Shown: positions 6,065 to 49,000, counted from the stretch's first letter. The stretch: DNA of 56,753 nt from a virus (IMGVR_UViG_3300032224_001432:1-56753); one strand, 5' to 3'. The notes: generated by a model from the sequence alone, not told the origin. Made by a program: numbers and translations.

Positions 6065-7060
6065 GTGAGTAATCCTATTACTGAGTACCTTAAATACGCT
6101 GCTAAGAAAAAGGTTCATGTGCATGAGTACGTGCGCAAGACAAAAAGCGGCACCACTATTGTGGACGAACATGATCGCTACGAAGAAAGCGGTAGTGCGG
6201 ACGACGTTATACTAGCGTCCGAGCAACGACAAATATCACAGCCCGAAGTAGAGTTCGACGCTGAGGAAGAGGTAGACACCGCACCAGAGCCTGCCGAAGA
6301 AATACCGCTGAAAAGACGTGCCACCTTAGAGAAAGTGGAGAAGACGTCTATTGGTACTCTGTCTAAAGAGCAAGAACTAGAGCTGTGGAAGAAATGGAAA
6401 GACGGCGGTAAAAAGCCTGCAGACCTGGAACCTCTTCTACAGAGCTTCAAGCCTCTTATTGCTGAAAAAATGAAGGCGTATAAGGGCCGTGTAAAGCTGA
6501 TACCAGACGCGGCTATAGAAGCGGAATTCCAACTTCGCTTCGTTGAGGCCCTAGATACCTTCGACCCTTCTAAGGCGTCCTTGTCTACGTATATTTATAG
6601 ATACTTGGATAAGGCCAAACGTTTCATAGCTGAGAATCAAAATGTCGGTAGAATACCGGAAACTCGTATCTACCAGATAAAGAAGTACCAAACTGCTGTT
6701 AGCGACTTGAACGAGGAACTATCTAGACCACCTACCCCAGTAGAAATATCTAAGAAGCTGGGTTGGCCAGTAGCTGAAGTAGAACGTATGGATTCTGAGT
6801 TACGCAACGATTTGCTATCTCAGGGGTTTGAGGACGACCCATACGCACTTACTCCGTCTAAGTCTGAAGAAGTCCTACGGCTGTTTAAATACGAGTTGTC
6901 GGGGCAAGAACGTGTAGTTTATGAGTACCTTACTGGCTACGGAAAACCTAGACTGGAGTCCACGGGCGAAATAGCCAGAAAGATGGGTCTCCAGGATTAC
7001 CAAATAAGCCGTTATAGAGACTCTATACAGAAAAAGCTACGCAAGTATCTGGAGGAATAA
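6065..7060 (+). CDS. Phage sigma70-family sigma factor (regions 2-3-4) with N-terminal extension
   Basis: Region 2 (FVEALDTFDPSKASLSTYIYRY...GRIP), region 3 (LNEELSRPPTPVEISKKLG), region 4 HTH (LSGQERVV...STGEIARKMGL...ISR); GTG start with GGAGG RBS. Confidence 0.88.
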   Translation: MSNPITEYLKYAAKKKVHVHEYVRKTKSGTTIVDEHDRYEESGSADDVILASEQRQISQPEVEFDAEEEVDTAPEPAEEIPLKRRATLEKVEKTSIGTLSKEQELELWKKWKDGGKKPADLEPLLQSFKPLIAEKMKAYKGRVKLIPDAAIEAEFQLRFVEALDTFDPSKASLSTYIYRYLDKAKRFIAENQNVGRIPETRIYQIKKYQTAVSDLNEELSRPPTPVEISKKLGWPVAEVERMDSELRNDLLSQGFEDDPYALTPSKSEEVLRLFKYELSGQERVVYEYLTGYGKPRLESTGEIARKMGLQDYQISRYRDSIQKKLRKYLEE

Positions 7061-7061
7061 A

Positions 7062-7571
7062 ATGTCTCGTAATCCGTTAATCCTAGAAGGCCTCCGCGGT
7101 GCGCGTAGAGAGCTAGAAAAGAGCGCCGGTCTGGAGAGCCTCGCTGCCAAGGGCACATTACTTGGTGCGTTAGGCGGTGCAGTAAAGGCCTTTGGTTCTG
7201 GCGCGGGGCGTATAGCCAAAGTAGAGAAAGCGATGGCTGCACAGGCAGCAGAGCAGGCGGCTGGTAGAACTTTAGCGGCGGAAAGTGCAGAGGCGAAACT
7301 TCTAGCCAGCGAGCCCGTATTGCAGAAGATGTTCGACCCAGCTACTGGTAAGATGAAGTCGTTCAAAGAGCATGCCGGCGACTATATGAAGATACTCGGA
7401 CCAGACGCTGCAAAGAGCATTGGGTTTGGTGCCGGTAGCCTAGGAACGGCTGGCCTGGCGGCAGATGTTATGAAAGGCGCTAACAAGTACAACGCTATAA
7501 AGCAGTACGCTCCCTATGCCGCTGGTGGTGCAGGTGCTCTTCTAGGAATTGCCGCAACTAAGCAGAGATAA
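7062..7571 (+). CDS. Gly/Ala-rich protein with ELEKSA motif and glycine-zipper helices; candidate internal virion protein
   Basis: GTLLGALGGAV, IGFGAGSLGTAGL and PYAAGGAGALLGIAA segments; C-terminus resembles that of the ORF ending at 679. Confidence 0.5.
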   Translation: MSRNPLILEGLRGARRELEKSAGLESLAAKGTLLGALGGAVKAFGSGAGRIAKVEKAMAAQAAEQAAGRTLAAESAEAKLLASEPVLQKMFDPATGKMKSFKEHAGDYMKILGPDAAKSIGFGAGSLGTAGLAADVMKGANKYNAIKQYAPYAAGGAGALLGIAATKQR

Positions 7572-7576
7572 CTAAC

Positions 7577-7786
7577 ATGGCTTCCGCAAAAGACGCAGAC
7601 GTCATAATTGAAGATCTAAAGCAACTGGTAACCAAGTTGGCAGATATCGAAAGGACTCGGTTGGTTCAGGAACGTAAGTTTTTAGAATCAATAAAGAAGT
7701 CTTCTTACGGATCTTCCACGCCTACTAAGGACCAGCAAACGGTTAAGGCAATAGAAGATGTCAAGAAGTTCCTTGGGGTGGTGTAA
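7577..7786 (+). CDS. Hypothetical small helical protein
   Basis: In-operon ORF, TAATG-coupled to the next gene. Confidence 0.5.
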   Translation: MASAKDADVIIEDLKQLVTKLADIERTRLVQERKFLESIKKSSYGSSTPTKDQQTVKAIEDVKKFLGVV

Positions 7787-8970
7787 TGAAAGCACAGATA
7801 GGGGTCCTGCGCAAATTTCACTGGTTTGATATTAACGGGGCCGTATCTTCTCCAGGACAAGTAAATGGTAAGTTGTATGTCGGTAATACTTTAGTTAAGA
7901 CCTTCACCAGTCTTACTCCACACGGCACCTTCCCCGATCTGTATATTTCCACTGAAGAGTATGCTGTAACCTCAGAGGAACCACACACATTTATCATATA
8001 TCAGAACACCACAGCACTAGACAGTGTTCTTGTGGAGTCTGGTCTCGTTCTAAGCCCAGAAGCAGAATACAATACCGCTCCGTCGTTAAGACTGTCGACG
8101 TCTATATATACATCCGGCGCAACCATAAGCGCATACTACTTAGCACCAAATGGCACGTTAAGCGTAGTTAAGACTGCTACTAAAGTTACAGCTAAAGCAG
8201 CGTATGTAATAAGTTCTCCACTAACACTGGACCAAATAGGTCCATGGCAAGTTATTTGGGTAGACGCCAGTATGGCGCGTTACGTACAAGAATACTGGGT
8301 TGGCAACCACCCAGGTCTTGAGACCGTCAAGGTGATAGCGCGTCTTAATATCTTAGAAGACAGCCCGAAGTATGTAGGCGCCACTGTCGTAGCATCGTCC
8401 TCTGATGGCACACAACTTGGACAGGCAGTTACCGATGCCAATGGTGCGGCCTTCTTTGACTTGGCTCCCGCTGACGTGACGTTCTCAATAATAAAGGCGG
8501 GTGCCGTATTCACCACTAATAACTTTGTATGTAAAGTGCGTGACACTAAGAAATACGCTGGAAGCAACATATTTCCTCTAGTAACAAACGCGTTCTACCC
8601 GACTACGACCTCGCCATCTATCGTTCCGCCGTTGTGCTCTGTATACGCCACATTGTTGGATTTTAGTGGCAGTCCGTTAAAGTTCGCTGATGTACTATTT
8701 TCTGTTCTTAGCTACCCGCAGTTGGCTTCTGGGGCAGGTGTCGTTGGAACGTCTATGGTAGCCAAGACCGACTCCAACGGTTACATGTCGGTCTCATTGG
8801 TGCAAGGCACTAAAGTGGAAGTAGCTATACCAGCAGCCTCGTTAAGACGCATCATAACCATACCGTCCAGCGTTGGACCTACCAACTTGCTGACGCTGGT
8901 CAGCGCCAGTGCTGATGTGTTCGACGCAGTATCATTGACTCTTCCGGCCGCGCCGCGGAGAACGCTATGA
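7786..8970 (+). CDS. Virion structural protein with tandem Ig/prealbumin-like beta-sandwich domains
   Basis: VGATVV...VTDANGAAFFDL and GSPLKFADVLF...KTDSNGYMSVSL motifs. Confidence 0.5.
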   Translation: MKAQIGVLRKFHWFDINGAVSSPGQVNGKLYVGNTLVKTFTSLTPHGTFPDLYISTEEYAVTSEEPHTFIIYQNTTALDSVLVESGLVLSPEAEYNTAPSLRLSTSIYTSGATISAYYLAPNGTLSVVKTATKVTAKAAYVISSPLTLDQIGPWQVIWVDASMARYVQEYWVGNHPGLETVKVIARLNILEDSPKYVGATVVASSSDGTQLGQAVTDANGAAFFDLAPADVTFSIIKAGAVFTTNNFVCKVRDTKKYAGSNIFPLVTNAFYPTTTSPSIVPPLCSVYATLLDFSGSPLKFADVLFSVLSYPQLASGAGVVGTSMVAKTDSNGYMSVSLVQGTKVEVAIPAASLRRIITIPSSVGPTNLLTLVSASADVFDAVSLTLPAAPRRTL

Positions 8971-9554
8971 GAGAACTTCTGCGCGATGCAATACGCGCGG
9001 CAGTCCGCACTTTTTACCCAGCAGCGATTTATTACTGGGTAATTTGGGCACACGTGTACAGATATTTCAATGATAGCAAGTATAAAGATATTGTCCTGAA
9101 TAAAGGGTTTTCTCCTACACGAGCACAGAACCTAATGGATCAGTTGCCGTGGAGTCCAGATACTTGGAAAGAGTTGTGGGACGTAGCCGCATCTCCTAAA
9201 AGATTCCAACGTGACCTGAATATCAGACTGCGGACTGGAATTATATCTTTAAGCGCTAGAGACTGTGACGACTTTGCGTGCTGGGCCTGCAACGTAGTTG
9301 CCGAGGAATATAACCCCCGCATGCTTCTAGTATGCTATCGCGACTACGCTAGCATGCTGCCGCGTGGCCATGTGGTATGTTACGTAGAAGTAGCTGGGCA
9401 AGGATTCCATATAGGAAATTGGGGCATGCGTGGACCTACTATCTGCTCTCAAGCAGAGGTTGCACACGCAGTTGCTGGGCAAAAAGCAGCCGAATTGATA
9501 GCGTTCGCTGTTCTGGACAAAGACCTAAGAGTTAAGAATATTAAGAGGGTGTGA
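8967..9554 (+). CDS. Transglutaminase-like (papain-fold) Cys protease/acyltransferase
   Basis: RDCDDFA (catalytic Cys), GHVVCYV (His), HIGNWG (candidate third residue). Confidence 0.6.
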   Translation: MRELLRDAIRAAVRTFYPAAIYYWVIWAHVYRYFNDSKYKDIVLNKGFSPTRAQNLMDQLPWSPDTWKELWDVAASPKRFQRDLNIRLRTGIISLSARDCDDFACWACNVVAEEYNPRMLLVCYRDYASMLPRGHVVCYVEVAGQGFHIGNWGMRGPTICSQAEVAHAVAGQKAAELIAFAVLDKDLRVKNIKRV

Positions 9555-10489
9555 TGGCTAATGTAAAGGTTTCCGCCAGAACAGCATTACTACCCGGTGG
9601 TGCACCGGTAGCAGGCGTAAATATAGCGCTGTACGCTACGGTAGCCCCGTATGCCAAATTGACTTCAGCCTTCACTGCCGCTAACGGCGAAGCTGCTCTT
9701 GGAGATAGACCTGTAGGTACGTATGAGATATACGTAACCACCAACGCAGGACAAGTCTCTGAGAGTGGAAACAGAATCACGGTTACAGTGGTTGATGCAA
9801 ACCCACATGTATTCGACGTGATAATAAATACTAGTGCATTGCCCACGGCAACTGACGCAAAATTCTGTCGTTGCTCTGGGTACGTCGTTGACTTGTTTGG
9901 ACGCCCTGTGCCTTACGCGACAGTAGTTTTTTCTGAGTCAGCTATTCCTAATCTTCTGTATTCGGCTGGTACGGGAACTTCTAGAGTAGTGTCTCCTAAA
10001 CTGCTAACAGCAGACGCAGACTCTGCAGGATGGCTGTCTGTTGACTTACTCAAGAACGCCACGTATGCCGTTACGTTTTCAGGTTATGAAAACGCTACGT
10101 GGACGATAACCGTGCCTAATCTATCGTCATCATCATTACCAGACGTTTTATTTCCAGTAATATCGGGTGTGTATTACTCAAATAGCGGAGTTACTCTGAG
10201 CCCGTCTAGTGCTCCAACTCTTTCTATGAGTGTCGGTCAAGAAAAAGAACTAGTTATCACTACCCAATACTTGAGTGGCCTACAAATTTCATCTACGAAA
10301 GACGTTTCTTTTACTTCGTCCGATGAAAATAAACTGGTTGTACTATTGACGGACACCTCTATTACTCTGCAAGCTATTGCCGCCGGCGTAGTTACAGTAG
10401 GGGTCAGTAGACGTGAAGAAAAAGAAACGCAAGCCTCAATCTTCGACGCCCCCTCCGTTTGGGGGACTTTATCCGTCACAGTCTCCTGA
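9554..10489 (+). CDS. Virion structural protein: prealbumin-like domains plus C-terminal bacterial Ig-like domain
   Basis: PVAGVNIALY...TAANGEA...GTYEI; GRPVPYATVVF...DADSAGWLSVDL; VSFTSSDENKLVV; similar to 7786-8970. Confidence 0.5.
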   Translation: MANVKVSARTALLPGGAPVAGVNIALYATVAPYAKLTSAFTAANGEAALGDRPVGTYEIYVTTNAGQVSESGNRITVTVVDANPHVFDVIINTSALPTATDAKFCRCSGYVVDLFGRPVPYATVVFSESAIPNLLYSAGTGTSRVVSPKLLTADADSAGWLSVDLLKNATYAVTFSGYENATWTITVPNLSSSSLPDVLFPVISGVYYSNSGVTLSPSSAPTLSMSVGQEKELVITTQYLSGLQISSTKDVSFTSSDENKLVVLLTDTSITLQAIAAGVVTVGVSRREEKETQASIFDAPSVWGTLSVTVS

Positions 10490-12519: not shown

Positions 12520-12527
12520 GGGTACAG

Positions 12528-13397
12528 ATGCTAGACGTCCAGGCTATTTACTTACGAGATACTGTACCAGCGAAAATGGTTCGTGGCGTTCTGGCTTTGT
12601 CGTACGAGACGCCCACTGACGGCACACCGATAGAGGCCTTCGTAGATGGACAAAGCACCGTATTTCTGAATAATAAAAATGGAAAAACTTTTATAGTAGT
12701 TCCTCCTGTTGGCTCTAAACAGAGTGGTTGGTCTGTTGCTCTAAATATAGCCACTGCTGGCGGACTCATAGTTAGACGTGGTTTTGGCGCTGAAAGTAAA
12801 CCAGTGCTCGCACTGCTAATAGCGATAACCATAAAAAAGTCTGGTTCTATTGCCGAAGTGTGGGTCAACTCGCAGTCTAGAACGTTCACACAAACTAGTG
12901 GTGATACGGTTCTCTGCGAGCCACCGGACAACCTAACCTCTATAGACTCAATAGAAGTTCTTACTGATAGTCCCACAATAGGAACAGCTACCGGGTTTAC
13001 ATATGCACTACAAGACAACTTAAAAACCGTAGCCGGTGCGCAGAAACTGGTGTTTCAGTTTGTGAAGCTTCTCATGACTACGCAGGGCACTGACCTATTC
13101 CACCAAGCCGAAGGCGGTAATTTGCAAAAAATACCGGGCATGCCTTTAGAGCAGGACGGTGCTGGATCACTAGGCGCACAGATATTATTGGCTGTTAATA
13201 GAACTACTGCCTACATGATAGGCGGCCAGACATTAACATCCTTACCAGCCGAAGAGCGCCTAACTAAGGCAACCATAGGAAATCTAATCTACGATAGAAA
13301 CGACCCAACTAGCGTTACCGTTTCTTTACGGCTAGAGAACTTGGCCAGAGAATCAGCTGTATTCAATTTTTTGACTAAGACGGCCGGAGGAAACTAA
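12528..13397 (+). CDS. Baseplate wedge/sheath initiator with C-terminal gp25 (GPW)-like domain
   Basis: QKLVFQFVKLLMTTQGTDLFHQAEGGNL...EERL...VTVSLRL; immediately precedes the J-like gene. Confidence 0.65.
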   Translation: MLDVQAIYLRDTVPAKMVRGVLALSYETPTDGTPIEAFVDGQSTVFLNNKNGKTFIVVPPVGSKQSGWSVALNIATAGGLIVRRGFGAESKPVLALLIAITIKKSGSIAEVWVNSQSRTFTQTSGDTVLCEPPDNLTSIDSIEVLTDSPTIGTATGFTYALQDNLKTVAGAQKLVFQFVKLLMTTQGTDLFHQAEGGNLQKIPGMPLEQDGAGSLGAQILLAVNRTTAYMIGGQTLTSLPAEERLTKATIGNLIYDRNDPTSVTVSLRLENLARESAVFNFLTKTAGGN

Positions 13398-16300
13398 TGG
13401 CTACGATTTCAGCTCGCGCTGAATTAGCGCAGTTCATGGTCGAACGTCTAGCTGAGCTAGACCCTACTCTGGCTACAACCGCCGGATCTCGTATTTATAC
13501 GGTGGTAATAAATCCACTGCTGAACAGACTAGGAGAAGATCCATTAGCTACGGATATGGAGTCCTTCATCCTAGCACGTATGCGAGATGTCTATCCTGAT
13601 ATAGATATCAATTCGCCCGGGTCAGTAGTTAGAGATATTTTTGTAAATCCTCTGCTGCTCTTGATGACACCGCTGCGAGAGGAAATAGCACATCTACGTA
13701 GGCAACAGTCGCTAGCGGACTATACCACGTTGTCAGACGTTGAGATGGACGCTCTGCTGTCCAATGTCCTAGCGTCACGTAATACGGGTTCTTTTGCTTA
13801 CGGCACTATACGCGTGTTCTTTTCCACTACCCGTGTAGTTGGCGTAGACGCCTCTATCCTATTTACCACGTCTGCAGGACAGGTATTTGTAGCTGATGAG
13901 ACTCGCCAATTCTTACCATCAGAGATGGTACGCCAAGGAAATCTTTGGTACATAGAAGTTGCTGCGAGATCTCAAACCCCGTCTACTTCATCCAACGTAG
14001 CGGCGGGCACTCCGTTTACCGTCACAGGCATAGATGGAGTAGTTAGAGCCGCCAACCCCACGGCCATCTCCGGCGGCGTTGACTCAGAGACTAATACACA
14101 GTTTTACGAGAGAGCGCTTACTGCCATAACTGAGCGCTCTCTAAATACTGAACGCGGTATCCAATCGTTTATATTCGACAACTCCACCAACATTGTCTCT
14201 GTAGATGTTGTCGGATTTGGCGACCCTTTAATGCAGCGCGACATATTGACTGCCAACGCCCCGGTTCAAATTACTGGTGTACCCGGCGGTGTGCCGTTTC
14301 CAGCTATTACCGGTGTTCCGGTAACAGTAAATCCTAATCAGGTGCATATAGGCGGAGCCACTGACATCTACGTTAAGACTGGACAAACTGCGTCCAACAC
14401 TGCCGCCGGACTATACCTTACGTCCGACAACATATCTGGTACCGTAAAAACTATTTCCATCACAGCGGGTAGCAACGTAGTTACTTCAACAGGTCTGGGC
14501 ACTTTACTAGGATTCTCTATTCCAGGAGTGTCGGTAATACCTTCTGGTACGTACACTTTAGAGCTAGAGAACCTAGACGCTAGCGGCATATCGCCATTAG
14601 CCGTCAAGATAGTAGCTGCTACTGGCGCCAATACTGTACGGGTGGATTCTGCCTTCGCCGGATTCGCTGGAGTTATGTCTGGCGTGCGTGCCCGTTTACA
14701 AACTTATGTGGACGTAGAGCTCACCTACCCAAAGAGAGTGTTGCAGGACGGTTTGATAAACACCGTTGCGGGCTCTCCCACTGTTACGTTGGTTCCTCCT
14801 AGTGTAAATACGTTTGTAAACAACCCCGCTAGCGAAGAGATCTATTTAGAGATACTGGGCACTGCGCTAGCCGGTGAATATAAAATACAAACCAAATTAG
14901 CTAGCCAGCTTGTGCTGAGCCAGGTATTGGGTATTACGCTTAATAATGTGCAGTACCGTATCTATACCAAGCAAGACGCTAAGTTCAATTTACCTATCAC
15001 TCAGTTAAAGAGCGTAACGATAAGCGATGGCGGCACGGGGGTTAAAATACCCTATGCCGATCCTATACATATCTCAGTAGCTTCTCCAGCCTCTAGACTA
15101 GCCAATCCAATAACATACGCTGATTTTGGTGCCTGTTCCGTCACAGGGACAACGTTATCGTGTACAGCGCCTAACTCGTTTCTTGTTCATGGATTACAGC
15201 AGGGAGATCTGGTGTACATACCAGAGATGATCCCTCTAAGCCAGAGTCCTTACTTCTATATAGTCAATATTACAGGAGCGACAACTATACAGCTAGACCA
15301 CGCTGTAGTTGGTGGTCCCATCGCTACTACTCAACTACTAATAGGTAGTCCTACGGTTAGCAGCACCACGTTGACTTTTATGGACCCCACCTTCTTCGAG
15401 GCTAAGAACACCTCAGTAGTGTTTACGCACACTAACGCTGCGGGAGAGGTTTACGATTTTGAACCTTCTAAAAACGTGGAAGGTTATCTTTATGCCCCAA
15501 CTGCGCTATCCACAACGTTTGTTGTAGACCCTGCAGTCAATACTCTTGTCAGTGCCGGTACGCATGACTTGCATGACATGGGCGTAAAAACTGGAGATAT
15601 CTTTGAGATACAGAGCATAGTACTAGACTCAGGTACATTTAACGCGGCGGAAGACGCAAACGTAGACGTAGGCGGTGCTCCTAATGTAGGACTATCAGTT
15701 CTGAACGTTACAGTAGATGGAATCGTAAAGCCTGTATTTTTCTCACAGATCAATCCTAGCCTAACGTCAGTCGTCTCCACTCTAAATCAGCAGCTAGGAG
15801 CTGACTTATATGCTGAACGGATAACTGTAGGCGCTAATAAGCAGCTACGCATATTTTCTAGAAAACACATAGTTTTAGCCAACGGCGTCGGCTCACCGTT
15901 AACCCACTTAAAATTGACGGGCGCTACTGACAACAGCCCTGCGGGCGTGGGCGGTGAGTTTTCAATCAGTGCCGTAGCAGCCAACGGATCTTCCGTTACT
16001 CTGTCCTCAGGAATAGGAGCCAGTGGACTGTCCAAGTCTGTATTAGTAAGAATAAAAAGACTGGGGACGCAGTACATATACCCGGCTAATATGACCTTGC
16101 AGGACAATGGTCTGTATACGGCTACTATTCAAGTGGCGTCGAAAATACCTATTTCTTTTGGCAAAGTACTAGCGAACGCAGAATGCGTTGGCTCTGGGTA
16201 TGTCTCTAGATACGGATACACGTTCAACGTAGCAAACCCAGAGTACGCGTTTTCTATTGGAGAGCAGCTATTTCTGCGAGTTTACAACCTAGTATTTCCA

Positions 16301-16756
16301 TCGACGGCTGTGTCCTTAGAGGAAGCTATCGTTGTGCCTAAAACGACTGTGGCGGTAGAGTACGAAAATGCTCCGGAGATATCTACGTTGCAGCAGGCCA
16401 TGTTGCGTAGAAGTTTACGCGTAACATGCAATAACCCGCTGATTAAATACTACCAACCGGCGTACCCGGTCATAGGTATACGGTACCAGGGGTTAGAAGA
16501 AGTAGAGACCGTCCGCACTAGTCTTCTAAACCTGATTGTTCGGCTATACCCAAACAATCCTTTAGAAGTTTATGACGTTTTAGCTGAAATAGGCAAACTA
16601 CGTGTGGATACAGTAGTAGGTCCGCTAGAAGTAGGGTATCTTACGATTGACAAGAACAGAACGCTGCGCTTGTTCAAATCTTTCGACCAAGTATCTATAG
16701 CGAGATCGTTCCATATTATGGGCGAACTAGACTACGTAGTGGTAACACGAGGGTAA
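13397..16756 (+). CDS. Baseplate wedge protein J-like (T4 gp6-like) with inserted beta domains
   Basis: PGSVVRDIF...MDALLSNVLASR...AYGTIRVFF...NPTAISGGVDSETNTQFYERA, the baseplate-J signature. Confidence 0.8.
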   Translation: MATISARAELAQFMVERLAELDPTLATTAGSRIYTVVINPLLNRLGEDPLATDMESFILARMRDVYPDIDINSPGSVVRDIFVNPLLLLMTPLREEIAHLRRQQSLADYTTLSDVEMDALLSNVLASRNTGSFAYGTIRVFFSTTRVVGVDASILFTTSAGQVFVADETRQFLPSEMVRQGNLWYIEVAARSQTPSTSSNVAAGTPFTVTGIDGVVRAANPTAISGGVDSETNTQFYERALTAITERSLNTERGIQSFIFDNSTNIVSVDVVGFGDPLMQRDILTANAPVQITGVPGGVPFPAITGVPVTVNPNQVHIGGATDIYVKTGQTASNTAAGLYLTSDNISGTVKTISITAGSNVVTSTGLGTLLGFSIPGVSVIPSGTYTLELENLDASGISPLAVKIVAATGANTVRVDSAFAGFAGVMSGVRARLQTYVDVELTYPKRVLQDGLINTVAGSPTVTLVPPSVNTFVNNPASEEIYLEILGTALAGEYKIQTKLASQLVLSQVLGITLNNVQYRIYTKQDAKFNLPITQLKSVTISDGGTGVKIPYADPIHISVASPASRLANPITYADFGACSVTGTTLSCTAPNSFLVHGLQQGDLVYIPEMIPLSQSPYFYIVNITGATTIQLDHAVVGGPIATTQLLIGSPTVSSTTLTFMDPTFFEAKNTSVVFTHTNAAGEVYDFEPSKNVEGYLYAPTALSTTFVVDPAVNTLVSAGTHDLHDMGVKTGDIFEIQSIVLDSGTFNAAEDANVDVGGAPNVGLSVLNVTVDGIVKPVFFSQINPSLTSVVSTLNQQLGADLYAERITVGANKQLRIFSRKHIVLANGVGSPLTHLKLTGATDNSPAGVGGEFSISAVAANGSSVTLSSGIGASGLSKSVLVRIKRLGTQYIYPANMTLQDNGLYTATIQVASKIPISFGKVLANAECVGSGYVSRYGYTFNVANPEYAFSIGEQLFLRVYNLVFPSTAVSLEEAIVVPKTTVAVEYENAPEISTLQQAMLRRSLRVTCNNPLIKYYQPAYPVIGIRYQGLEEVETVRTSLLNLIVRLYPNNPLEVYDVLAEIGKLRVDTVVGPLEVGYLTIDKNRTLRLFKSFDQVSIARSFHIMGELDYVVVTRG

Positions 16757-16760
16757 TTAA

Positions 16761-37630: not shown

Positions 37631-37638
37631 GGTGGCCT

Positions 37639-39081: not shown

Positions 39082-39082
39082 T

Positions 39083-42274: not shown

Positions 42275-42293
42275 TTTTGTCTCCTTCATGGGC

Positions 42294-42323
42294 ATTATAC
42301 CAAGTAAGCGTACGTTCTTGCGA
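42294..42323 (-). promoter_or_regulatory. Candidate promoter of the replication operon: extended -10 TGGTATAAT with upstream CGCAA
   Basis: Minus strand tcGCAA gaacgtacgcttact TGGTATAAT gcccatg AAGGAG acaaaa ATG. Confidence 0.65.
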
Positions 42324-42334
42324 TGAGGAAACCG

Positions 42335-43333
42335 ATGGGAAGCAAACTTACCACTCCCCCGATTCTCGACCACTATGACGATCATGGGGCAGCGTTTCTA
42401 CGCGACCTAGGTTCCCTTCCTGTCCCAGACTTTGTCAAGACAGCTGCAGATATGACTAGTGCCCAAAAGCACGAAGCAGACTTTGCACTAGTTGCCGACA
42501 CAGTCAACGGACGTGAGTATAAGTTCCCTGTAGTAGACAAGGGGAATACCTTCCTGTCCGCAATGTACTTTGAGAAGACGGCACACGCTCTACCAGACGA
42601 CCTACGCAAGCAGGCGGCCACGGTGTTGGCAGACGCTCTTAAAGACTACGGCTTTGCCGTACCGTCGTACATAACCGACGCCGTGTTGTCTGAAAAGACC
42701 GCTTCTGCTCCCATGCTGGCAATAGAGGTAGAGTACGCTAATAAGAAGAATGTTAATCCAGCGCAAGAGCTGGTTGACGAGTTTGCCCAGATACACCCAA
42801 TGGCTCGTCCTGAAGCAGCGAGAATGCTGAAGCAGGCTGGCGTGGTTCTACCAGAGGCCATAGCTTGCTACGCACGTGACGCAGTCGGCTCGGACTTTGA
42901 GGCGTCGATCATAGCACGCGCACGCTTTATGCTGCCCGAAGAGGCAGAGAGCATCAAAGATCTAGTGAAAGTAGCTCACCAAGTGTCTGTAGATGAACTG
43001 GCGAGCGAACTGTATGAAATCGACCAGGAGTTTGGTCTTACCAGATTCTACGATACCAAGTTGGCCGACCCGTACCGTTCAATACTAGGAACTGAGCTGC
43101 AGAGCGTAAGAGAGAAGACCGCCAAAGCTACATCGATTACCATCGATGATAAAGTTTTCACTGAAGATGCAATCAGAGATCGCGCAGCGAAGTTTGGCGA
43201 TAAGATTGACGATCTGTTTGGCGATATGGTCTCAACTCAATTAGTGGTTGCTCCTATAGAAGTTCTTGGTAGCCTACCGGTACCTCATCAGCAGGCGCTA
43301 GCGAGGATACTAGATGGCTCAGCTACCGAGTAA
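42335..43333 (+). CDS. Head-associated protein candidate with seven K-x-A motifs
   Basis: VKTAA, EKTAH, RKQAA, EKTAS, LKQAG, VKVAH, EKTAK; first gene of the portal operon; GAGG RBS. Confidence 0.5.
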   Translation: MGSKLTTPPILDHYDDHGAAFLRDLGSLPVPDFVKTAADMTSAQKHEADFALVADTVNGREYKFPVVDKGNTFLSAMYFEKTAHALPDDLRKQAATVLADALKDYGFAVPSYITDAVLSEKTASAPMLAIEVEYANKKNVNPAQELVDEFAQIHPMARPEAARMLKQAGVVLPEAIACYARDAVGSDFEASIIARARFMLPEEAESIKDLVKVAHQVSVDELASELYEIDQEFGLTRFYDTKLADPYRSILGTELQSVREKTAKATSITIDDKVFTEDAIRDRAAKFGDKIDDLFGDMVSTQLVVAPIEVLGSLPVPHQQALARILDGSATE

Positions 43334-43964
43334 GACTAACGCGTTATATAGAAAGCAGCTTTTTGCTAACATAAACGCCCACCCAATAGCTCTGAACCTC
43401 TGCATGCTGCAGGAGTTCGGCCCAGTTTATTTAAACTGGGAACCTGAGACTTGTTGGGACGAGGTCAAGTTGTCTTTTGGCGTTATGCTTGCGGAAGCTA
43501 ATCGCCAAAAGATACAGGCTGTCCGAAGCATATATGTATCGGATGAACCACTCTCGTCTTGGGAAGTTTTTGAGGCAGTAGCCGCTGGTCTAGTAGGAGT
43601 GTCCCCACGAGTTGACACCATCCAGCGCCCAACGCCGGGTAGAGCGCATGTTGCTCTAGATATTATTAATTATATTCGTCCTGAAGAAGTTAAGGATGAA
43701 GTCTACAGATACTGCGCTGCCGCTTTGATGGACTCAGGCATTATTTATGGGCCAGGCTCACTAGAGCCCAGCAATAAGTATGTCCCCGCTAATGAAACAG
43801 AACGCGCTCAAGTAAAGAACCTAGTAGCCCGAGGGTCGCTACCAGCAAGCTTTAGTGGTAACGACGTAACGTATGTTCAGGCGATGAAATCTCTCGCCGT
43901 CAAAGATTTTGCAAACTCGACCGCTCAGCAGTTAGCCGAGCAAATCAGAAAACTATCTGAGTAG
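43314..43964 (+). CDS. Hypothetical protein upstream of portal
   Basis: GAGGA RBS; in-operon. Confidence 0.55.
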   Translation: MAQLPSKTNALYRKQLFANINAHPIALNLCMLQEFGPVYLNWEPETCWDEVKLSFGVMLAEANRQKIQAVRSIYVSDEPLSSWEVFEAVAAGLVGVSPRVDTIQRPTPGRAHVALDIINYIRPEEVKDEVYRYCAAALMDSGIIYGPGSLEPSNKYVPANETERAQVKNLVARGSLPASFSGNDVTYVQAMKSLAVKDFANSTAQQLAEQIRKLSE

Positions 43965-43972
43965 AGGCTTAC

Positions 43973-45799
43973 ATGGCTGAGACACAGTCGATTACAACTA
44001 CACTATCTAGAGCTAAGACTGTCGGTAGACCGGAGAACTACTATCCGTCCCCGTTCTTTGATCTTGCGCAGACTTATATGCCTGCGAACATCAAAGACAC
44101 CTTTGAGTGGTGTGCCTACTATTACCAAACCAATCCGATAATAAACGGCGTAGTAACAAAGTTATCCTCGTACGCCATAACAGATCTTTTGTATGGTGAC
44201 CCCGTCGAGTCCTCCACTTTTAAGAAGTTATTCGAGGGACCTCTCAATCTAAGAACTTTCTTAGTGGAATTTGGCCTTGACCGTAACTGCTTTGGCAATG
44301 CCTTTGCTTCAGTAGTGTTTCCGTTCAAAAAGATCCTAGGATGCCGCAGCTGCGGAAAACTCATAGAGGCTACGAAGGCTGACTACACGTTCAGATCTGG
44401 TAAGTTCATCCTCAAGTGCGCTAACTGCAAGTTTGAGGGAGAGGCTAGGGCTAAAGATGAGACTATACCCGCGGCCAACCAGATAAGGTTAAAGCGTTGG
44501 TCCCCTAGACAAATCACTATACGCACCAACGAGAGCACCGGCGAATGCCGTTATTTTTATTCTCTATCTCGATCAGCACGTAACGAGATATTACTAGGTA
44601 ATAGAAAGACGCTTGAGTCTACGCCACAAGCGTTCATCGATGCCGTCCACGGAAACAAGCTGATTGAGCTAGATCCTACCAAGTTGTTCCATTCACGTAG
44701 ACCTAGTATCTCACGTGATATTACGGACGCTGGCTGGGGCACTCCCCTCATTCTTCCAGTACTAAAAGACATCTTCCTTCTACAAGTTCTTAAGAAGTCC
44801 CAGGAAGTTGTCGCTATGGAGTACATCCTGCCTTTCCGCAGTTTGTATCCAGAAGTTCGTGCCGACGGTAATAACGTCTATGGTCAGGTAAATCTGACCG
44901 CATGGCAAAACAGCGTGAAGCGCGAAATTACCCAGTGGAAGAAAGACCCTGGGCACATCGCCGTATTCCCTGTACCGATAGGACAACAAGTTATGGGCGG
45001 ACAAGGCCGCTCAATGCTTCTGCACCAAGAAGTGCGTGTCTACAGCGATCAAATAATCGCCGGCATGGGCGTACCTACCGGTTTCTACTACGGTGAGGCT
45101 CTATACTCTGGCGCTAGCGTAAACCTACGCGCTATGGAAAATGAGTTCCTAGCGTACCGTCAAGATATGCAGCACCTAGTAGAGTTCTTCGTTAAGAGTA
45201 TCGCGTATGGCCTGAGCATCCAGCCGATAGACGTCAAGTTCCGCGAGTTTAAGATGGCGGACGACCTAGCGCGTGCTGGTATGGAATTCAACATGGCCAA
45301 CGCTGGACGCCTAAGCTGGCGTACGTTCCTAAGCTCACGTGGTTTCGACTACGACCACGAGAACAAGCTAATCATAAAAGAGCTTTCGGACGCAGCGGAG
45401 AAAAACAAGATCAATGCTAAGGCGCAAGCAGCTGTTCAAGCCATGATGGGTCAGGAGCAGGCTAAATCGCAAAGCGCTACACAGCGGCTAATGGCAAGAC
45501 TACAGGGAGCGGCTCCACAAGCAGCCCCTCCTCCGGGTCAGCCAGGACAGCCACCCGAAGCAGGACCTCCACAGCAGGGAGCAACGCAATCTCCACAGCA
45601 GGAGGCTTCTGGCATAGCGCAGCAACTGGCCCAGATGCCAGAAGTACAGCGCTACCAGACTTTAGCCAGAATGCGACAAGAGAATCCTGATCTGTACCAG
45701 ATGGTAAACACGATGTTGCAGGGTGGCGGTCCACAACCCGGGCAGCAGCTGCCGGAGCAGCTGCCACCTCGGGCCGAAGGATTTAATCGTCAGCTATAA
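43973..45799 (+). CDS. Portal protein with inserted Zn ribbon and Gln/Pro-rich tail
   Basis: YYQTNPIINGVVTKL, DRNCFGNAF, WGTPLI, IIAGMGVP...SGASVNL portal-type motifs. Confidence 0.75.
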   Translation: MAETQSITTTLSRAKTVGRPENYYPSPFFDLAQTYMPANIKDTFEWCAYYYQTNPIINGVVTKLSSYAITDLLYGDPVESSTFKKLFEGPLNLRTFLVEFGLDRNCFGNAFASVVFPFKKILGCRSCGKLIEATKADYTFRSGKFILKCANCKFEGEARAKDETIPAANQIRLKRWSPRQITIRTNESTGECRYFYSLSRSARNEILLGNRKTLESTPQAFIDAVHGNKLIELDPTKLFHSRRPSISRDITDAGWGTPLILPVLKDIFLLQVLKKSQEVVAMEYILPFRSLYPEVRADGNNVYGQVNLTAWQNSVKREITQWKKDPGHIAVFPVPIGQQVMGGQGRSMLLHQEVRVYSDQIIAGMGVPTGFYYGEALYSGASVNLRAMENEFLAYRQDMQHLVEFFVKSIAYGLSIQPIDVKFREFKMADDLARAGMEFNMANAGRLSWRTFLSSRGFDYDHENKLIIKELSDAAEKNKINAKAQAAVQAMMGQEQAKSQSATQRLMARLQGAAPQAAPPPGQPGQPPEAGPPQQGATQSPQQEASGIAQQLAQMPEVQRYQTLARMRQENPDLYQMVNTMLQGGGPQPGQQLPEQLPPRAEGFNRQL

Positions 45800-45924
45800 A
45801 ACGTTCGATGGAGAGCATGATCGATATCGTACCAGTCTCCGTCGAAATCCCCGTCAGGCATCACTTGTGCCCGCCGATGCCCGCCGATGCCATTCTCGAC
45901 ATCGTCATCAAACTGTGTGAACAT
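45790..45924 (-). CDS. Unannotated 44-aa acidic peptide containing DGDFDGD
   Basis: MFTQFDDDVENGIGGHRRAQVMPDGDFDGDWYDIDHALHRTFYS; GAGG RBS 8 nt upstream; preceded by the CTGCAA-N20-ATAAG motif. Confidence 0.5.
   Translation of the reverse strand: MFTQFDDDVENGIGGHRRAQVMPDGDFDGDWYDIDHALHRTFYS
45868..45891. repeat. 10-bp tandem repeat (TGCCCGCCGA x2.4)
   Basis: tgcccgccga tgcccgccga tgcc read directly. Confidence 0.85.
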
Positions 45925-45967
45925 TTCTTTTTCCTCAATAACTCGATAATAGCTACCGAGCACTATT

Positions 45968-45998
45968 CTTATTACAAATAATAGGTGCGTACTTGCAG
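45968..45998 (-). promoter_or_regulatory. Candidate phage promoter CTGCAA-N20-ATAAG, divergent from the RNAP gene
   Basis: Minus strand CTGCAA gtacgcacctattatttgta ATAAG. Confidence 0.55.
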
Positions 45999-46010
45999 TA
46001 GGAGTTAAAA

Positions 46011-49000
46011 ATGGCCAATAGCTTGCTCAACCCCGAGGGCGCGATGAAATCGCTCGAAGACGGGACGATCAACGCAGTCAGTTCGTTCTTCCCAGTAGAA
46101 GGCAAGAAGCACAAACTGGTAGCCACAAATATCTACGCAGGTAGCGACGTCGATCACGAAGATGTTGCTAGCCAGAAGAAAGCCAAGTTGCGCGGTCGCA
46201 CGTGGTCTGTGGGCGTATACGCTGACATGGACATGATCGACAAAGAGACTGGTAAGAAGATAGACAGCGTCAAGGGGATGAAGCTACTCAATCTCCCTAA
46301 GCTTACTAAGCGCTACTCCTTCATAGTTGACGGCGTTGAGTACCAAGCCGACAACCAATGGCGCCTTAAATCTGGTGTATATTCCAGACAGCGTGCTAAC
46401 GGTGAACTAGAAGCACAGTTCAACTTGGCGGAAGGTCGCGGCTTTCGCATGGACTTCTACCCAGCCAAACGCCAGTTCCTGCTGCGCTATGGTACGGCTA
46501 ATATCCAATTGCTTCCTGTACTACGAGCCCTCGGAGTTAAAGACTCAGAGATGCGTCAGTCATGGGGCGACAAGGTATTCGACGCCGTAGCCGCCAACAA
46601 GTCTCGGGGAGACGTACAGAAACTAGCCAAAGCGCTAGACTCTAGATTCTCTGGTGACGACAACGCGGCAGCTACACTTATAAAGGACAAGTACAGCCAA
46701 TCTGTATTACTGCCAGATACAACCAAGCTCACTCTTGGGAAAGAATACAATAAGGTCGAACCAGACACGCTTCTACGCGCATCTACTAAACTACTGAATA
46801 TTAACCGTGGTACGGAAGAGACTGACAACCGTGATTCACTACGATTCAAAGAACTGTGGACTATCGAGGATCACATTCCAGAGAGAATTATTAACTCTGG
46901 TAAACGCGCACAGTTTAAAATAAAGAACAACCTAGATAGAAAAGACAACATACGCGACGTAGTAACTACTGACATCTTTAATGTGCCAGTAAAGGCGTAC
47001 TTTACTACTACGTCACTGGCGCAGATGTCTCCGCAGCTAAACCCTGTTGAGATGGCCGCCGGTTTCTTACGTACCACCATTATGGGACAAGGCGCTATCA
47101 GTAGTGATCAGGCTATCTCTCTAGATGCCAAGATGATCGACCCAAGCATGTTGGGTGTTGTGGACCCAGTCCATACACCAGAAGGCAACGCAGGTATCAG
47201 TACGCACTTGACGCTAGGAACTGGCAAGCGCGGCAAAGATCCGACCATAAAGGTGTACGACACTAAGTCTAAGAAGCTTGTTGAGAAAACACCTACAGAG
47301 CTAGCCGCAGGCACTCTTGCTTTCCCAGATCAGTACGAGGAAAACAAAGACGGTCCTCCACACCCTAGACATGATCTGGTAACCGTCATACCAAAGGGCG
47401 GTGGTGACCCAACACAGGTCAAGCCTAGCGAAGTCGACTACATCATGCGTTCGCCTAAATCGATGTTCTCGGTTGTGGCTAACCTAGTTCCTTTCTTACC
47501 ATCGGACCAAGCCAACAGAGCTGGTATGGCGACCCGCCACATTAGTCAGGCTATCTCGCTAAAAGAGCGCCAAGCTCCTCTAGTGCAAGTAGCTGCCGCC
47601 ACGGGTAATCCTAAGATAGACACTTGGGAGAAAATCGTAGGTAAGACGGCGTCTAGCCAAGCCCCTGTAGACGGAACTATCTCTGAAGTAACTAATGAGA
47701 AAATAGTTATTCAGGGAGAAGACAAGAAGAAGTACGAAGTCGGTCTATACGATAACTATCCTCTTAACGAGAAGAAGTCGTACATAACCAGCCTTCCTCT
47801 TGTTAAAGCCGGCGATAAGGTAAAGAAAGACGATATTATCGCTGATACCAACTTCACCGATAAGGGCACTCTGGCACTGGGTAGAAACCTAAAGGTAGCC
47901 TACCTAGACTGGCAGGGAGCTACGTTTGAGGACGCTATCGTTGTAAGCGAGAAGGCTGCCAAAGACTTGACCAGTCTTCACCAGAGCAAGCCACGTGTCT
48001 ACTTAGACAAGGGTATGTCTCTTGGTCTATCCAGATTCAGAGCTAACTTCCCCGGTGTTGTAACCGACGAGAACGCAAAGAAGTTAGACGAAAATGGCGT
48101 TATCAAGAAAGGACAAGTTGTAAAGCCTGGCGACGTAATAATGACTGTCCTCAAAAAGACAGAGCCGTCGCCAGAACAGGTAATGTTAAAGGGCATCCAC
48201 AAAGCTCTAGCTAAGCCGTACAAAAACTCATCTGTTGTATGGGATTCCGACTACAGCGGCACTGTCACAGACGTAGCGGTTAACGGAAATGAAGTAGTAG
48301 CTTACGTCACCACCGAGGAGCCTCTTGAGATAGCTGACAAACTATCAAATAGACATGGCGGTAAGGGCGTCGTAAGTATGGTAGTTCCTACTGAGGAAAT
48401 GCCTAAGAACGCCGCTGGTGAGCCCATAGATATCATCGTGTCTCCGATGGGTGTCCCCGGTCGTATCAACATCGGTCAGGTATTAGAGACCATGTTAGGC
48501 AAGGTAGCCCATGAGAAAGGCACTACCTTTGCCGTAGACAACTTCCAGACAGAGAACGGTAAGAAGATCGTTCAGGTGGAAGGACACTACAGAACAGTTA
48601 AGGGCGAGGGCGGTCAGACCAAAGAAGTATGGGTCAAGCCGCACACGCGAGAGCTAGGCTACCAAGACATAGTCAAAGAAGTATTAGCTCAGAATAAGGT
48701 GGACGATACTGAGGAACTGTTTGACCCGCAGACCAAGAAGAGCTTCGGCAAGGTTCTAACGGGCTTTCAGTATTTCATCAAGCTTACCCACCAAGTAGAC
48801 AAGAAGATGGCTGGTCGTAGCCACGGCTACGGTAATGACTACGACGCGACACTAATACCCAAGGGTGGTGGTGATGCTGGAGCCCAGAGATATGGCGAGC
48901 TAGGTCTTTATGCCATGTTGGCGCACGGTGCTACTAACGAACTGCGCGATACAATGACGTACAAGTCTGACAAGGCGCAGCAAGATGTGTGGACAGCCAT

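What the first reader, a model, noticed from the sequence alone, without database searches (positions are those of the whole stretch)
6113..48650. Same His/Tyr-Arg hairpin tag on the RNAP, the sigma factor and a stand-alone mini-protein
Seen: three unrelated genes share V-x-x-[HY]-x-R-(Gly-containing loop)-[VI]-x-x-[HY]-x-R. Sigma N-terminal extension: VHEYVRKTKSGTTIVDEHDR (6113-6178). Insertion of about 33 aa in RNAP beta, absent from cellular enzymes: VEGHYRTVKGEGGQTKEVWVKPHTR (48570-48650). 50-aa ORF at 2322: VLGHVRVLKRTGTRTVINPYKR. Inference: a portable module added to both halves of the transcription apparatus, possibly a DNA-binding or capsid-targeting signal that co-packages and co-ejects RNAP and sigma with the genome.
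Basis: partly seen in the sequence, partly recalled or inferred. Interest (0 to 1): 0.9.

Follow-up and report, generated by a model that had tools for sequence, protein, structure and literature searches.

The report
Portable basic hairpin on phage sigma, RNAP
A marine phage's own sigma factor and RNA polymerase each carry a copy of a small basic beta-hairpin that also recurs between the domains of phage proteins thought to be injected with the DNA, so it is a real, apparently undescribed portable module, though its function and the third claimed copy remain unproven.

Summary
The window is about a third of a ~180-kb marine phage. It encodes a fused beta-beta' RNA polymerase (46011-52241) and its own sigma factor (6065-7060).

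All three motif copies are at the stated coordinates. Two are real:
- **Sigma copy:** kept in 109 of 120 homologues.
- **RNAP copy:** a ~31-aa insertion that arose once on the RNAP tree.
- **Co-occurrence:** both present in 5 of 5 genomes, both absent in 9 others plus two cultured relatives, none discordant.
- **Similarity:** a sigma-hairpin profile picks the RNAP hairpin as its best match in 2089 columns (P=6.6e-5).

The 50-aa ORF copy is not supported. It has no homologue, no ribosome-binding site and only marginal scores.

A library-wide profile search found the sigma hairpin to belong to a widespread module with no Pfam or NCBIfam model. It repeats 2-6 times in phage polyvalent-type proteins (ADP-ribosyltransferase, InPase, LPD1 and others) and in small secreted bacterial proteins.

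My best reading (0.42) is a nucleic-acid or polyanion tether. A packaging tag remains possible, but phage Arash has RNAP and sigma in its virions without either hairpin.

The parts
6065..7060 (+). Phage sigma factor (331 aa), a divergent sigma-70 family member. Layout: N-terminal helix, hairpin, acidic disordered linker, then regions 1.2 to 4.
   Evidence: Pfam Sigma70_r3 at 25.6 bits (cut-off 25.3); Sigma70_r2 at 17 bits is below its cut-off. The profile of 69 homologues hits RpoS and SigA chains in the PDB, best E=3e-8. 150 homologues were found. AF2 model has mean pLDDT 82.6.
6071..6100 (+). Sigma N-terminal helix NPITEYLKYA, just before the hairpin.
   Evidence: AF2 helix at residues 4-13. 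P4, F8, K10 and A12 are nearly invariant in 69 homologues. The helix is also kept in sigmas of the sister clade that lack the hairpin.
6110..6181 (+). Sigma hairpin (residues 16-39; motif core 6119-6178): a long two-stranded beta ribbon with the turn at K27-S28.
   Evidence: AF2 strands 16-19, 22-26, 29-33 and 36-39, with block pLDDT 87-92. Strict motif in 109 of 120 homologues. Top hit of the independent 'pv' profile, E=1.4e-6.
6182..6364 (+). Acidic, disordered linker between the hairpin and sigma region 1.2; its length varies among homologues.
   Evidence: AF2 pLDDT is below 50 for residues 43-56, 67-69 and 84-94, and the first core helix starts at residue 101. Homologues of 275-391 aa differ mainly here.
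46011..52241 (+). Fused beta-beta' multisubunit RNA polymerase (2076 aa).
   Evidence: Pfam Rpb2 domains 3, 6, 7 and Rpb1 domains 1, 2, 3, 5 in one frame. 4556 homologues were found, many about 2080 aa.
48564..48656 (+). RNAP hairpin insertion (residues 852-882; motif core 48576-48650) in the beta part, between the NPxGVPGRxNxGQ block and the KLxHQVDKK block.
   Evidence: A gap of 31-35 residues at this place in Arash and Vibrio D69 RNAP and in the clade at 40% identity or less. AF2 of residues 540-1010 gives strands 852-856, 859-864, 870-875 and 878-882, with pLDDT 60-78. Presence needs a single change on the RNAP tree. Best match of the sigma-hairpin profile, P=6.6e-5.
2322..2474 (+). 50-aa orphan ORF with a motif-like stretch at 2361-2426. 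Doubtful as a gene and as a member of the module.
   Evidence: Only itself found in the 5.8-billion-protein collection. Its ATG overlaps the upstream stop (ATGA) and has no spaced Shine-Dalgarno, whereas the next gene has GGAGGG. An 83-aa antisense ORF (2291-2542) overlaps it. Profile scores are marginal.
43973..45799 (+). Portal protein (context). The order portal, small ORF, RNAP is shared with Salmonella phage Arash.
   Evidence: 27% identity over 595 residues to Arash gp204 portal, E=6e-79. Arash annotation.

Best explanation
**What it is.** The motif is a small, basic, self-contained beta-ribbon of about 22-30 residues: two V-x-x-[H/Y]-x-R strands joined by a Gly-containing turn. It is a portable module, not a feature private to this phage.

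Its canonical form has a 7-10-residue connector (8-9 in sigma) and the consensus TTVKAHTRKTKSGKVVTVKQYTRK. That form:
- sits at the N-terminus of this phage clade's sigma, after a short helix and before an acidic linker, where sigma-70 carries region 1.1;
- is repeated 2-6 times between or ahead of the enzymatic domains of phage polyvalent-type proteins;
- makes up most of some small secreted bacterial proteins.

A longer-loop variant (12-13-residue connector) is inserted in a surface loop of the beta part of the same clade's fused RNAP. This is the same stretch that carries the bacterial lineage-specific inserts beta-i11 and beta-i12. Both copies appear in the same clade.

**Proposed mechanism (inferred, not shown).** The ribbon binds nucleic acid or another polyanion without sequence specificity. 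It would act as a tether that keeps sigma and RNAP on DNA: on the phage genome during delivery, at promoters, or both. Polyvalent effectors would use the same tether.

**Shown here:** existence, conservation, predicted hairpin fold, co-occurrence, single origin of the RNAP insert, and membership of the sigma copy in the wider family.

**Inferred:** the ligand, and any role in delivery or transcription.
For: Conservation: sigma copy 109 of 120 strict; RNAP copy 45 of 120 strict and 54 loose, plus variants.

Fold: AF2 predicts the same long kinked hairpin in both. Sigma has block pLDDT 87-92 and RNAP 60-78.

Co-occurrence: both are present in the window, G001, G002, G013 and G014, which is 5 of 5. 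Both are absent in G003, G004, G005, G006, G010, G011, G015, G016 and G017, which is 9 of 9 genomes in which a sigma was found. Both are also absent in Arash and the Vibrio D69/D181 phages.

Origin: presence of the RNAP hairpin needs 1 change on a tree of 99 RNAPs (SH-aLRT 92).

Cross-similarity: in the six-frame translations of three complete relatives, the best non-self hit of the sigma-hairpin HMM is the RNAP hairpin (E=0.0022, 0.0028 and 0.013). hhalign against the whole RNAP profile gives P=6.6e-5 with all 23 columns aligned.

Wider family: 43 of 52 significant hits of the sigma N-terminal profile are non-sigma proteins with 2-6 hairpin stretches. Of the 26 large ones, 21 were scanned with Pfam. 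These carry InPase (6), ADP-ribosyltransferase (4), and LPD1, SNF2/Sno helicase, ParB_N, Mom, PAPS reductase and SAM lyase. A profile built only from 77 of their units finds the sigma hairpin first in all four genomes (E=1.4e-6 to 2.8e-8).

Basis for polyanion binding: composition read directly from the sequences. Net charge is about +6 to +9 in the polyvalent and secreted units and about +3 in the window's two copies. In addition, the module's carriers span cytoplasmic, probably virion-borne and secreted proteins, which argues for a generic ligand.
Against: No binding assay or structure exists, so the ligand is pure inference from charge and context.

The window's own copies are only mildly basic (about +3), and each is followed by acidic residues.

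The RNAP copy is only weakly seen by the independent 'pv' profile: E=0.025, 0.15 and 0.79, and not among the six best hits in G002. It could therefore be a convergent look-alike rather than a homologue.

The His is highly conserved (H or Y only in sigma). A purely electrostatic tether does not obviously need it.

Co-occurrence in one clade amounts to one or two evolutionary events, so it is not a statistical proof of functional coupling.

Sigma was not found on 4 fragmentary contigs (G007, G008, G009, G012). These include the only available genome with the 'half' RNAP variant.
Confidence: 0.42

Rival explanations
1. Virion-incorporation or ejection tag. A capsid, scaffold or portal component recognises the hairpin, so that tagged proteins (polyvalent effectors, sigma, RNAP) are loaded into the head and delivered with the DNA.
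For: The module recurs in polyvalent-type phage proteins. PMC5512222 describes that class as packaged and injected, and InPase as confined to phage-type polyvalent proteins that are likely packaged into the virion (passages). In 9 of 26 large carriers a unit lies within the first 40 residues, as in sigma. The sigma and RNAP genes sit among structural genes: baseplate-J-like at 13397-16756 and portal at 43973-45799. In Arash, virion mass spectrometry detected RNAP beta (most spectra), beta' and sigma.
Against: Arash sigma and RNAP lack both hairpins yet are found in virions. However, 116 proteins were detected there, and the authors themselves allow for carry-over. In three complete hairpin-clade genomes no other protein carries the motif, structural or not. 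Of the 17 small carriers, 14 have signal-peptide-like N-termini. One relative sits on a 2.16-Mb bacterial contig next to dnaN, where a capsid tag has no role. The RNAP copy is internal, not terminal.
Confidence: 0.2
2. Mutual docking. The sigma N-terminal hairpin pairs with the RNAP hairpin as like-with-like beta ribbons, giving this clade an extra sigma-core anchor. This would be analogous to the SI3-sigma arch of cyanobacterial RNAP.
For: Both were acquired in the same clade with no discordant genome. Each is the other's closest look-alike in the genome. A listing abstract (PMC10120043) gives a precedent for a lineage-specific RNAP insertion that contacts sigma.
Against: The sigma form is the same module that occurs in many proteins with no RNAP partner. 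In the shortest sigmas the hairpin is only about 10-15 residues from region 1.2. The beta insertion lies in the beta-i11/beta-i12 surface region, which from my recollection of bacterial structures is not near the region 1.2 site; I did not measure this. The second strand of the RNAP hairpin lost H-x-R 3-5 times on the tree.
Confidence: 0.1
3. Processing handle. The helix-plus-hairpin unit marks the boundaries at which polyvalent proteins are cut, or is an exosite for the processing peptidase. On sigma and RNAP it would be an inherited or inert remnant.
For: In P0247 the unit ...RLLAEA plus hairpin comes before several of the different enzymatic domains. PMC5512222 proposes that zincin-like peptidases process polyvalent proteins (passages).
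Against: The window shows no peptidase link. Sigma keeps the unit strongly (109 of 120), which argues against an inert remnant. The small secreted repeat proteins have no domains to separate.
Confidence: 0.08
4. No shared function. The sigma and RNAP hairpins are unrelated stable beta-hairpins that resemble each other by convergence or chance.
For: The independent 'pv' profile sees the RNAP copy only weakly. The loop lengths differ: 8-9 residues against 12-13. The motif was defined after the fact.
Against: hhalign P=6.6e-5 as the single best hit in 2089 columns. The RNAP hairpin is the best non-self hit in 3 of 3 complete genomes. The same six positions are the conserved ones in both families. 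The phyletic pattern is perfect.
Confidence: 0.12

Closest known systems
Inter-domain elements of phage polyvalent proteins (Iyer et al. 2017, PMC5512222)
   Same: The sigma hairpin matches, at library-wide significance, units repeated 2-6 times in proteins carrying InPase, ART-PolyVal/ADP-ribosyltransferase, LPD1, SNF2, ParB_N and Mom domains. A short helix often precedes the unit, as in sigma.
   Different: Sigma and RNAP are not polyvalent proteins. The passages I read list only globular domains (LPD1-40) and do not mention this hairpin. The paper's supplementary files could not be seen. No Pfam or NCBIfam model covers the unit.
Sigma-70 region 1.1
   Same: Same position: N-terminal to region 1.2 and joined by an acidic linker.
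   Different: Region 1.1 is, from my recollection, an acidic helical domain. Here the element is a short helix plus a basic beta hairpin, and no sequence match to any sigma N-terminus appeared in the PDB search.
Bacterial lineage-specific inserts beta-i11 (E. coli) and beta-i12 (Thermus) (PMC2939025)
   Same: The same stretch of beta, between the NPLGVPSRMNxGQ block and the KLxHxVDDKxHARS block, carries clade-specific surface insertions.
   Different: Beta-i11 is 54-69 residues with a helical predicted structure, and beta-i12 is 43 residues. The phage insert is a hairpin of about 31 residues with no similarity to them.
T4-type capsid-targeting sequences and virion RNAPs (N4, phiKZ)
   Same: The idea of a short signal or dedicated packaging for injected transcription proteins. 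Arash virions contain RNAP and sigma.
   Different: I did not compare sequences with any capsid-targeting signal; what I know of them is recalled. The RNAP copy is internal. Arash lacks the hairpins.
Beta-ribbon nucleic-acid binders (HU/IHF arms, ribbon-helix-helix, arginine-rich hairpins such as BIV Tat)
   Same: A two-stranded basic ribbon with Arg and aromatic side chains. This is the functional analogy behind the best explanation (recalled knowledge).
   Different: No sequence or fold comparison was possible for so small an element, and binding is untested.

Membership tests
Sigma-70 family | Regions 2, 3 and 4 detectable by family profiles | tested here: met
   Sigma70_r3 at 25.6 bits against a cut-off of 25.3; r2 at 17 bits is below its cut-off. 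The profile of 69 homologues aligns positions 113-284 to RpoS chains, E=3e-8.
Multisubunit RNAP beta/beta' (fused) | Rpb2 and Rpb1 catalytic-core domains in one polypeptide | tested here: met
   PF00562 E=3e-56, PF00623 E=4e-26 and PF04998 E=9e-20 in the single 2076-aa frame.
Widespread V-x-x-[HY]-x-R hairpin module (uncurated; consensus TTVKAHTRKTKSGKVVTVKQYTRK): sigma copy | Detected by a profile built only from unrelated carriers; two half-sites; 7-10-residue connector with a Gly turn | tested here: met
   The 'pv' HMM (77 units, no sigma or RNAP rows) gives E=1.4e-6 in the window and 2.8e-8, 2.9e-8 and 9.8e-7 in G001, G013 and G002, top hit each time. Connector is 8 or 9 residues in 108 of 110 sigmas.
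Same hairpin module: RNAP copy | As above | tested here: inconclusive
   'pv' HMM: E=0.025 (window), 0.15 (G001), 0.79 (G013), not in the top six in G002. Sigma-hairpin profile: P=6.6e-5 and E=0.0022 to 0.013. Connector is 12-14 residues.
Same hairpin module: 50-aa ORF copy | As above, plus evidence that the ORF is a gene | tested here: not met
   hhalign P=0.046 and 0.17, aligning one strand only. 'pv' score 6.5, reached by 28 of 5000 shuffles, and not among the six best frames. No homologue. No spaced Shine-Dalgarno.
Polyvalent proteins | Several unrelated effector or enzymatic domains in one polypeptide | tested here: not met
   Sigma and RNAP carry only their own family domains. They share the module, not the architecture.
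Capsid-targeting signal | Necessary and sufficient for incorporation into the head | not testable with these tools
   Only indirect evidence: Arash virions hold hairpin-less sigma and RNAP.
Sigma region 1.1 | Acidic helical domain N-terminal to region 1.2 | tested here: not met
   The AF2 model shows a 10-residue helix plus a beta hairpin. The hairpin segment has net positive charge and only the linker is acidic.

The most novel reading that the evidence does not exclude
The hairpin is a general 'travels with the DNA' module. It would be a short nucleic-acid-binding ribbon that marks phage proteins delivered into the host together with the genome. Polyvalent effectors would carry it between every domain, and in this clade the phage's own sigma and RNAP would carry it too. 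Its presence would then predict which phage proteins are injected, and it could be used to load cargo.
Probability: 0.22. Interest if true: 0.85.

Novelty: new variant of a known kind. Interest (0 to 1): 0.62.

Why it matters
Phages that bring their own multisubunit RNAP and sigma are poorly understood, and this ~180-kb marine group has no close cultured member. A shared module acquired in the same clade by sigma and core would point to a clade-specific step in transcription or delivery that can be tested with peptides and deletions.

The same 22-24-residue unit also turns out to be a common building block of phage polyvalent proteins and of small secreted bacterial proteins. No Pfam or NCBIfam model covers it. 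Defining its ligand would annotate many proteins at once. If the delivery reading holds, it would give a sequence marker for injected phage proteins.

Tried and rejected
**Complex prediction.** Complex prediction with sigma residues 1-45 against RNAP residues 540-1010, both as alignments, returned 'no answer' (score 0.00, controls not run). I count it neither for nor against docking.

**First sigma-hairpin HMM.** The HMM was wrongly built: my loose pattern caught the N-terminal helix (V..F.K) as the first half-site, as one search showed. Its failure to see the RNAP copy is void. It was rebuilt. At least one of the 110 rows (P0007) is still mis-extracted, as the hhalign display shows.

**hhalign of whole alignments.** A2 against A4 was uninformative. 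The hairpin columns of A4 are gaps in more than half of the rows, so they are not profile positions.

**Protein atlas.** Nothing usable for sigma residues 12-42. Only sub-threshold hits (0.85 or less) for the mini-ORF.

**Closer relatives covering the mini-ORF.**
- Viral-contig scan with the upstream 438-aa protein: none found.
- Metagenome scan with the downstream protein: none found.
- Metagenome scan with the 82%-identical sigma: its contig starts 212 bases before sigma.
So conservation of the mini-ORF stays untested in close relatives.

**Other null results.** PHROGs and Pfam gave almost nothing for the neighbouring genes. The promoter and terminator scan of 2200-2700 found nothing. There are no tRNAs.

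**Covariation.** I compared sigma and RNAP hairpins in 13 pairs matched only by equal contig length. Some features run in parallel, but this was too weak and too confounded by ancestry to use.

**Metal site.** I considered a His4 metal site formed by two hairpins and rejected it as unlikely, because His is often replaced by Tyr or Phe.

**Literature.** Searches, and passages read, gave no description of this hairpin. A motif cannot be searched as text, and supplements were closed, so this is not proof that it is unpublished.

Full report
**What the window is.** The 56,753-base window is a virus record estimated to be 32% complete. It has no close DNA relative among deposited phages. Nearly all of 38-27221 and 42323-56753 is read on the + strand. 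Recognisable genes:
- a baseplate-J-like protein, 13397-16756;
- a portal, 43973-45799, 27% identical to gp204 of Salmonella phage Arash;
- a 2076-aa fused beta-beta' RNA polymerase, 46011-52241;
- a 331-aa sigma factor, 6065-7060.

The nearest cultured phages are Vibrio phages D181, D148 and D69 and Salmonella phage Arash, at about 30% RNAP identity. Uncultured relatives are common, with genomes of 173-202 kb. Four complete relatives have no alpha-subunit homologue: PF01193 matched 0 of 4 genomes and 14 of 14 controls.

**The observation.** All three peptides are present as described. The strict pattern occurs only at those three places in the six-frame translation. Residue shuffles of 52 picked proteins gave a mean of 0.03 hits, and 2 or more in 12 of 20,000. 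That gene set had picked the antisense ORF, so it held two of the three copies. Because the motif was defined after it was seen, I rely mainly on conservation.

**Sigma copy.**
- Of the 120 best homologues listed (150 found), 109 keep the strict pattern in the first 80 residues. The misses are truncated N-termini or single substitutions.
- The conserved columns are exactly the motif positions: V19 is invariant; R24, V33 and R38 are at 90% or more.
- AF2, run on 69 sequences, predicts a helix at 4-13 and then a long hairpin. Its strands are 16-19, 22-26, 29-33 and 36-39, the turn is at K27-S28, and block pLDDT is 87-92. A disordered acidic stretch follows, and the sigma core starts at residue 101.
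- The PDB profile search places that first core helix in region 1.2 of SigA-type sigmas. The helix-plus-hairpin therefore stands where region 1.1 would be.

**RNAP copy.**
- Of 120 listed homologues, 45 keep the strict pattern and 54 the loose one.
- In an alignment of 31 of the 120, chosen to span the range, further sequences keep the first strand but have ...PYEY in the second. All sequences at about 40% identity or less have a gap of about 33 residues. The same holds for 46 of 51 fetched loci that covered the site.
- Arash and Vibrio D69 RNAPs have gaps of 31-35 residues there.
- The insertion lies between the NPxGVPGRxNxGQ block and the KLxHQVDKK block. The three printed alignments to solved bacterial beta subunits break here. 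E. coli beta-i11 and Thermus beta-i12 lie in this same stretch (PMC2939025, passages).
- AF2 of residues 540-1010 (38 rows) predicts strands 852-856, 859-864, 870-875 and 878-882 at pLDDT 60-78. This is the same kinked-ribbon pattern as in sigma.
- I built a tree from the 311 residues before the insert. It used 99 of the 120 RNAPs; 21 were dropped because one alignment piece did not cover the fragment. On it, presence or absence needs a single change (SH-aLRT 92). The full and 'half' forms interchange 3-5 times.

**Are the two copies alike?**
- Position by position they share V-[KR]-x-H-x-R in strand 1 and K-x-[VI]-x-V-[KD]-x-H-[DE]-R-[ED] in strand 2. They differ in connector length: 8-9 residues against 12-13.
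- A sigma-hairpin HMM with no RNAP rows has the RNAP hairpin as its best non-self hit among about 4000 six-frame frames in each of three complete relatives. The E-values are 0.0022 (G001), 0.0028 (G013) and 0.013 (G002). In the window E is 0.13.
- hhalign of that profile against the 2089-column RNAP profile returns one hit, the hairpin, with all 23 columns aligned, P=6.6e-5 and probability 64%.
- In those three genomes, and in 870 kb of other loci, the remaining strict matches are junk or antisense frames. One further match lies inside an inserted element of some RNAPs.

**Co-occurrence.** Both hairpins are present in the window, G001, G002, G013 and G014. Both are absent in G003, G004, G005, G006, G010, G011, G015, G016 and G017. 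They are also absent in Arash, and in the near-identical Vibrio phages, where sigma was read in D181 and RNAP in D69. No sigma was found on four fragmentary contigs (G007, G008, G009, G012). No genome was discordant. Sigmas of the hairpin-less sister clade keep the N-terminal helix (NPxxDFLxF) and go almost straight into region 1.2. The hairpin and linker therefore look like an insertion there too. This pattern fits acquisition in one clade; it is suggestive, not a statistic.

**The wider family, the main new result.** I built a profile of the sigma helix-plus-hairpin from 11 sequences given by DNA reference and searched it against 1.84 billion representatives. It gave 52 proteins at E of 0.001 or better.
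- Nine match from profile position 1-3 in a single stretch. These are sigma-like or sigma fragments.
- The other 43 match only the hairpin part, in 2-6 stretches each.
- Twenty-six of those are 341-2375 aa. I scanned 21 of them with Pfam:
  - InPase in 6;
  - ADP-ribosyltransferase (PF03496 or ART-PolyVal) in 4;
  - single cases of LPD1, SNF2 or Strawberry-notch helicase, ParB_N, Mom, PAPS reductase, SAM lyase, DUF6496, DUF5661 and cysteine dioxygenase;
  - no family in 6, and a below-cut-off match only in one (P0258).
- This is the repertoire of phage polyvalent proteins. PMC5512222 (passages) describes them as packaged in the head and injected, and InPase as confined to the phage type.
- Units lie between or before the Pfam domains. 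In 9 of 26 a unit starts within the first 40 residues.
- Seventeen are 76-203 aa and consist mostly of repeats such as VKGYTRKTKSGKVVTVKGYTRK. Fourteen of them have a signal-peptide-like N-terminus.
- Relatives of one small protein are on Armatimonadota contigs. One sits on a 2.16-Mb contig between dnaN and an aldehyde dehydrogenase gene.
- No Pfam or NCBIfam model covers the unit.
- A profile built only from 77 units of these 43 proteins finds the sigma hairpin as the top hit in the window and in three relatives (E=1.4e-6 to 2.8e-8). It finds the RNAP copy only weakly.

So the sigma copy is a canonical member of the family. The RNAP copy is a long-loop variant that is closest to its own phage's sigma copy.

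**The 50-aa ORF.**
- It fits the gap between two + strand genes and starts at an ATGA overlap. It has no spaced Shine-Dalgarno, whereas the next gene has GGAGGG.
- It is overlapped by a longer antisense ORF.
- It has no homologue and no counterpart in two syntenic relatives.
- Its scores against the three hairpin profiles are marginal.
- The G before H and the P before Y recall the RNAP copy, so I do not exclude it, but I judge it more likely chance (about 70%).

**Function.** Nothing here measures binding. I favour a non-specific nucleic-acid or polyanion tether (0.42) for three reasons:
- the unit is strongly basic in most carriers;
- it works in very different protein contexts, including secreted ones;
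- it sits on two proteins whose business is DNA.

A packaging or ejection tag (0.20) fits the polyvalent-protein link, the gene neighbourhood and the Arash virion proteome. Against it, Arash lacks both hairpins, no structural protein of the clade carries the motif, and the secreted bacterial carriers do not fit. Mutual docking (0.10), a processing handle (0.08) and no shared function (0.12) remain open.

**Novelty.** The searches I could make found no description of the unit (passages). Supplements were closed, and a motif cannot be searched as text. I rate it a new variant of known kinds: lineage-specific RNAP inserts, sigma N-terminal extensions and short portable modules.

Noticed in passing
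Proteins P0250, P0265, P0270, P0280, P0292 and others (hits): In 11 of 46 hairpin units of the large polyvalent-type proteins, a Q-x-x-[LMI]-F or G-[LMI]-F motif lies within 16 residues upstream (for example QLELF, QQGLF, QMGMF). From memory, this resembles the bacterial sliding-clamp-binding motif QL[SD]LF.
   Followed up: partly
Relatives of window 46011-52241: Many RNAP homologues are 2400-3600 aa and carry intein or homing-endonuclease families (PF14528, PF14890, PF03161, PF05204). The window's RNAP has none.
   Followed up: no
G001, G002, G013, G014 (complete relatives): No alpha-subunit (PF01193) homologue in 0 of 4 genomes, while 14 of 14 control genomes match. The fused enzyme seems to work without an alpha-type assembly platform.
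   Followed up: partly
L072-L076, L101 (sigmas of the hairpin-less sister clade): The N-terminal helix NPxxDFLxF is kept even where the hairpin and acidic linker are missing. It is therefore older than the hairpin and may have its own role.
   Followed up: partly
RNAP homologues P0162, P0164, P0171 and others; loci L067-L070: A 'half' variant of the RNAP hairpin, with second strand ...W-I-E-P-Y-E-Y instead of ...V-K-P-H-x-R, arose 3-5 times on the tree. The sigma of these phages could not be recovered.
   Followed up: partly
window 2291-2542 (- strand) and 2475-2491: An 83-aa antisense ORF overlaps the 50-aa ORF. Directly after the 50-aa ORF's stop there is a 5-bp inverted repeat, AGCAC(7 nt)GTGCT, with no T run. 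The 215-base gap may be regulatory rather than coding.
   Followed up: no
L134 3929-4408 and L131-L133: Small hairpin-repeat proteins with signal peptides are encoded on Armatimonadota contigs. One lies on a 2.16-Mb contig beside dnaN, an aldehyde dehydrogenase gene and a ParA-like gene. 273 genome stretches matched the back-translated query peptides, which include KGYTRKTK, but only 4 were confirmed as relatives of the query.
   Followed up: partly
L067-L070, L077-L080, residue 1061 of the 2498-aa RNAP frame: One more strict pattern match (IKNYWRR...VTAHRR) lies inside what looks like an inserted element of these RNAPs. It was not examined further.
   Followed up: no
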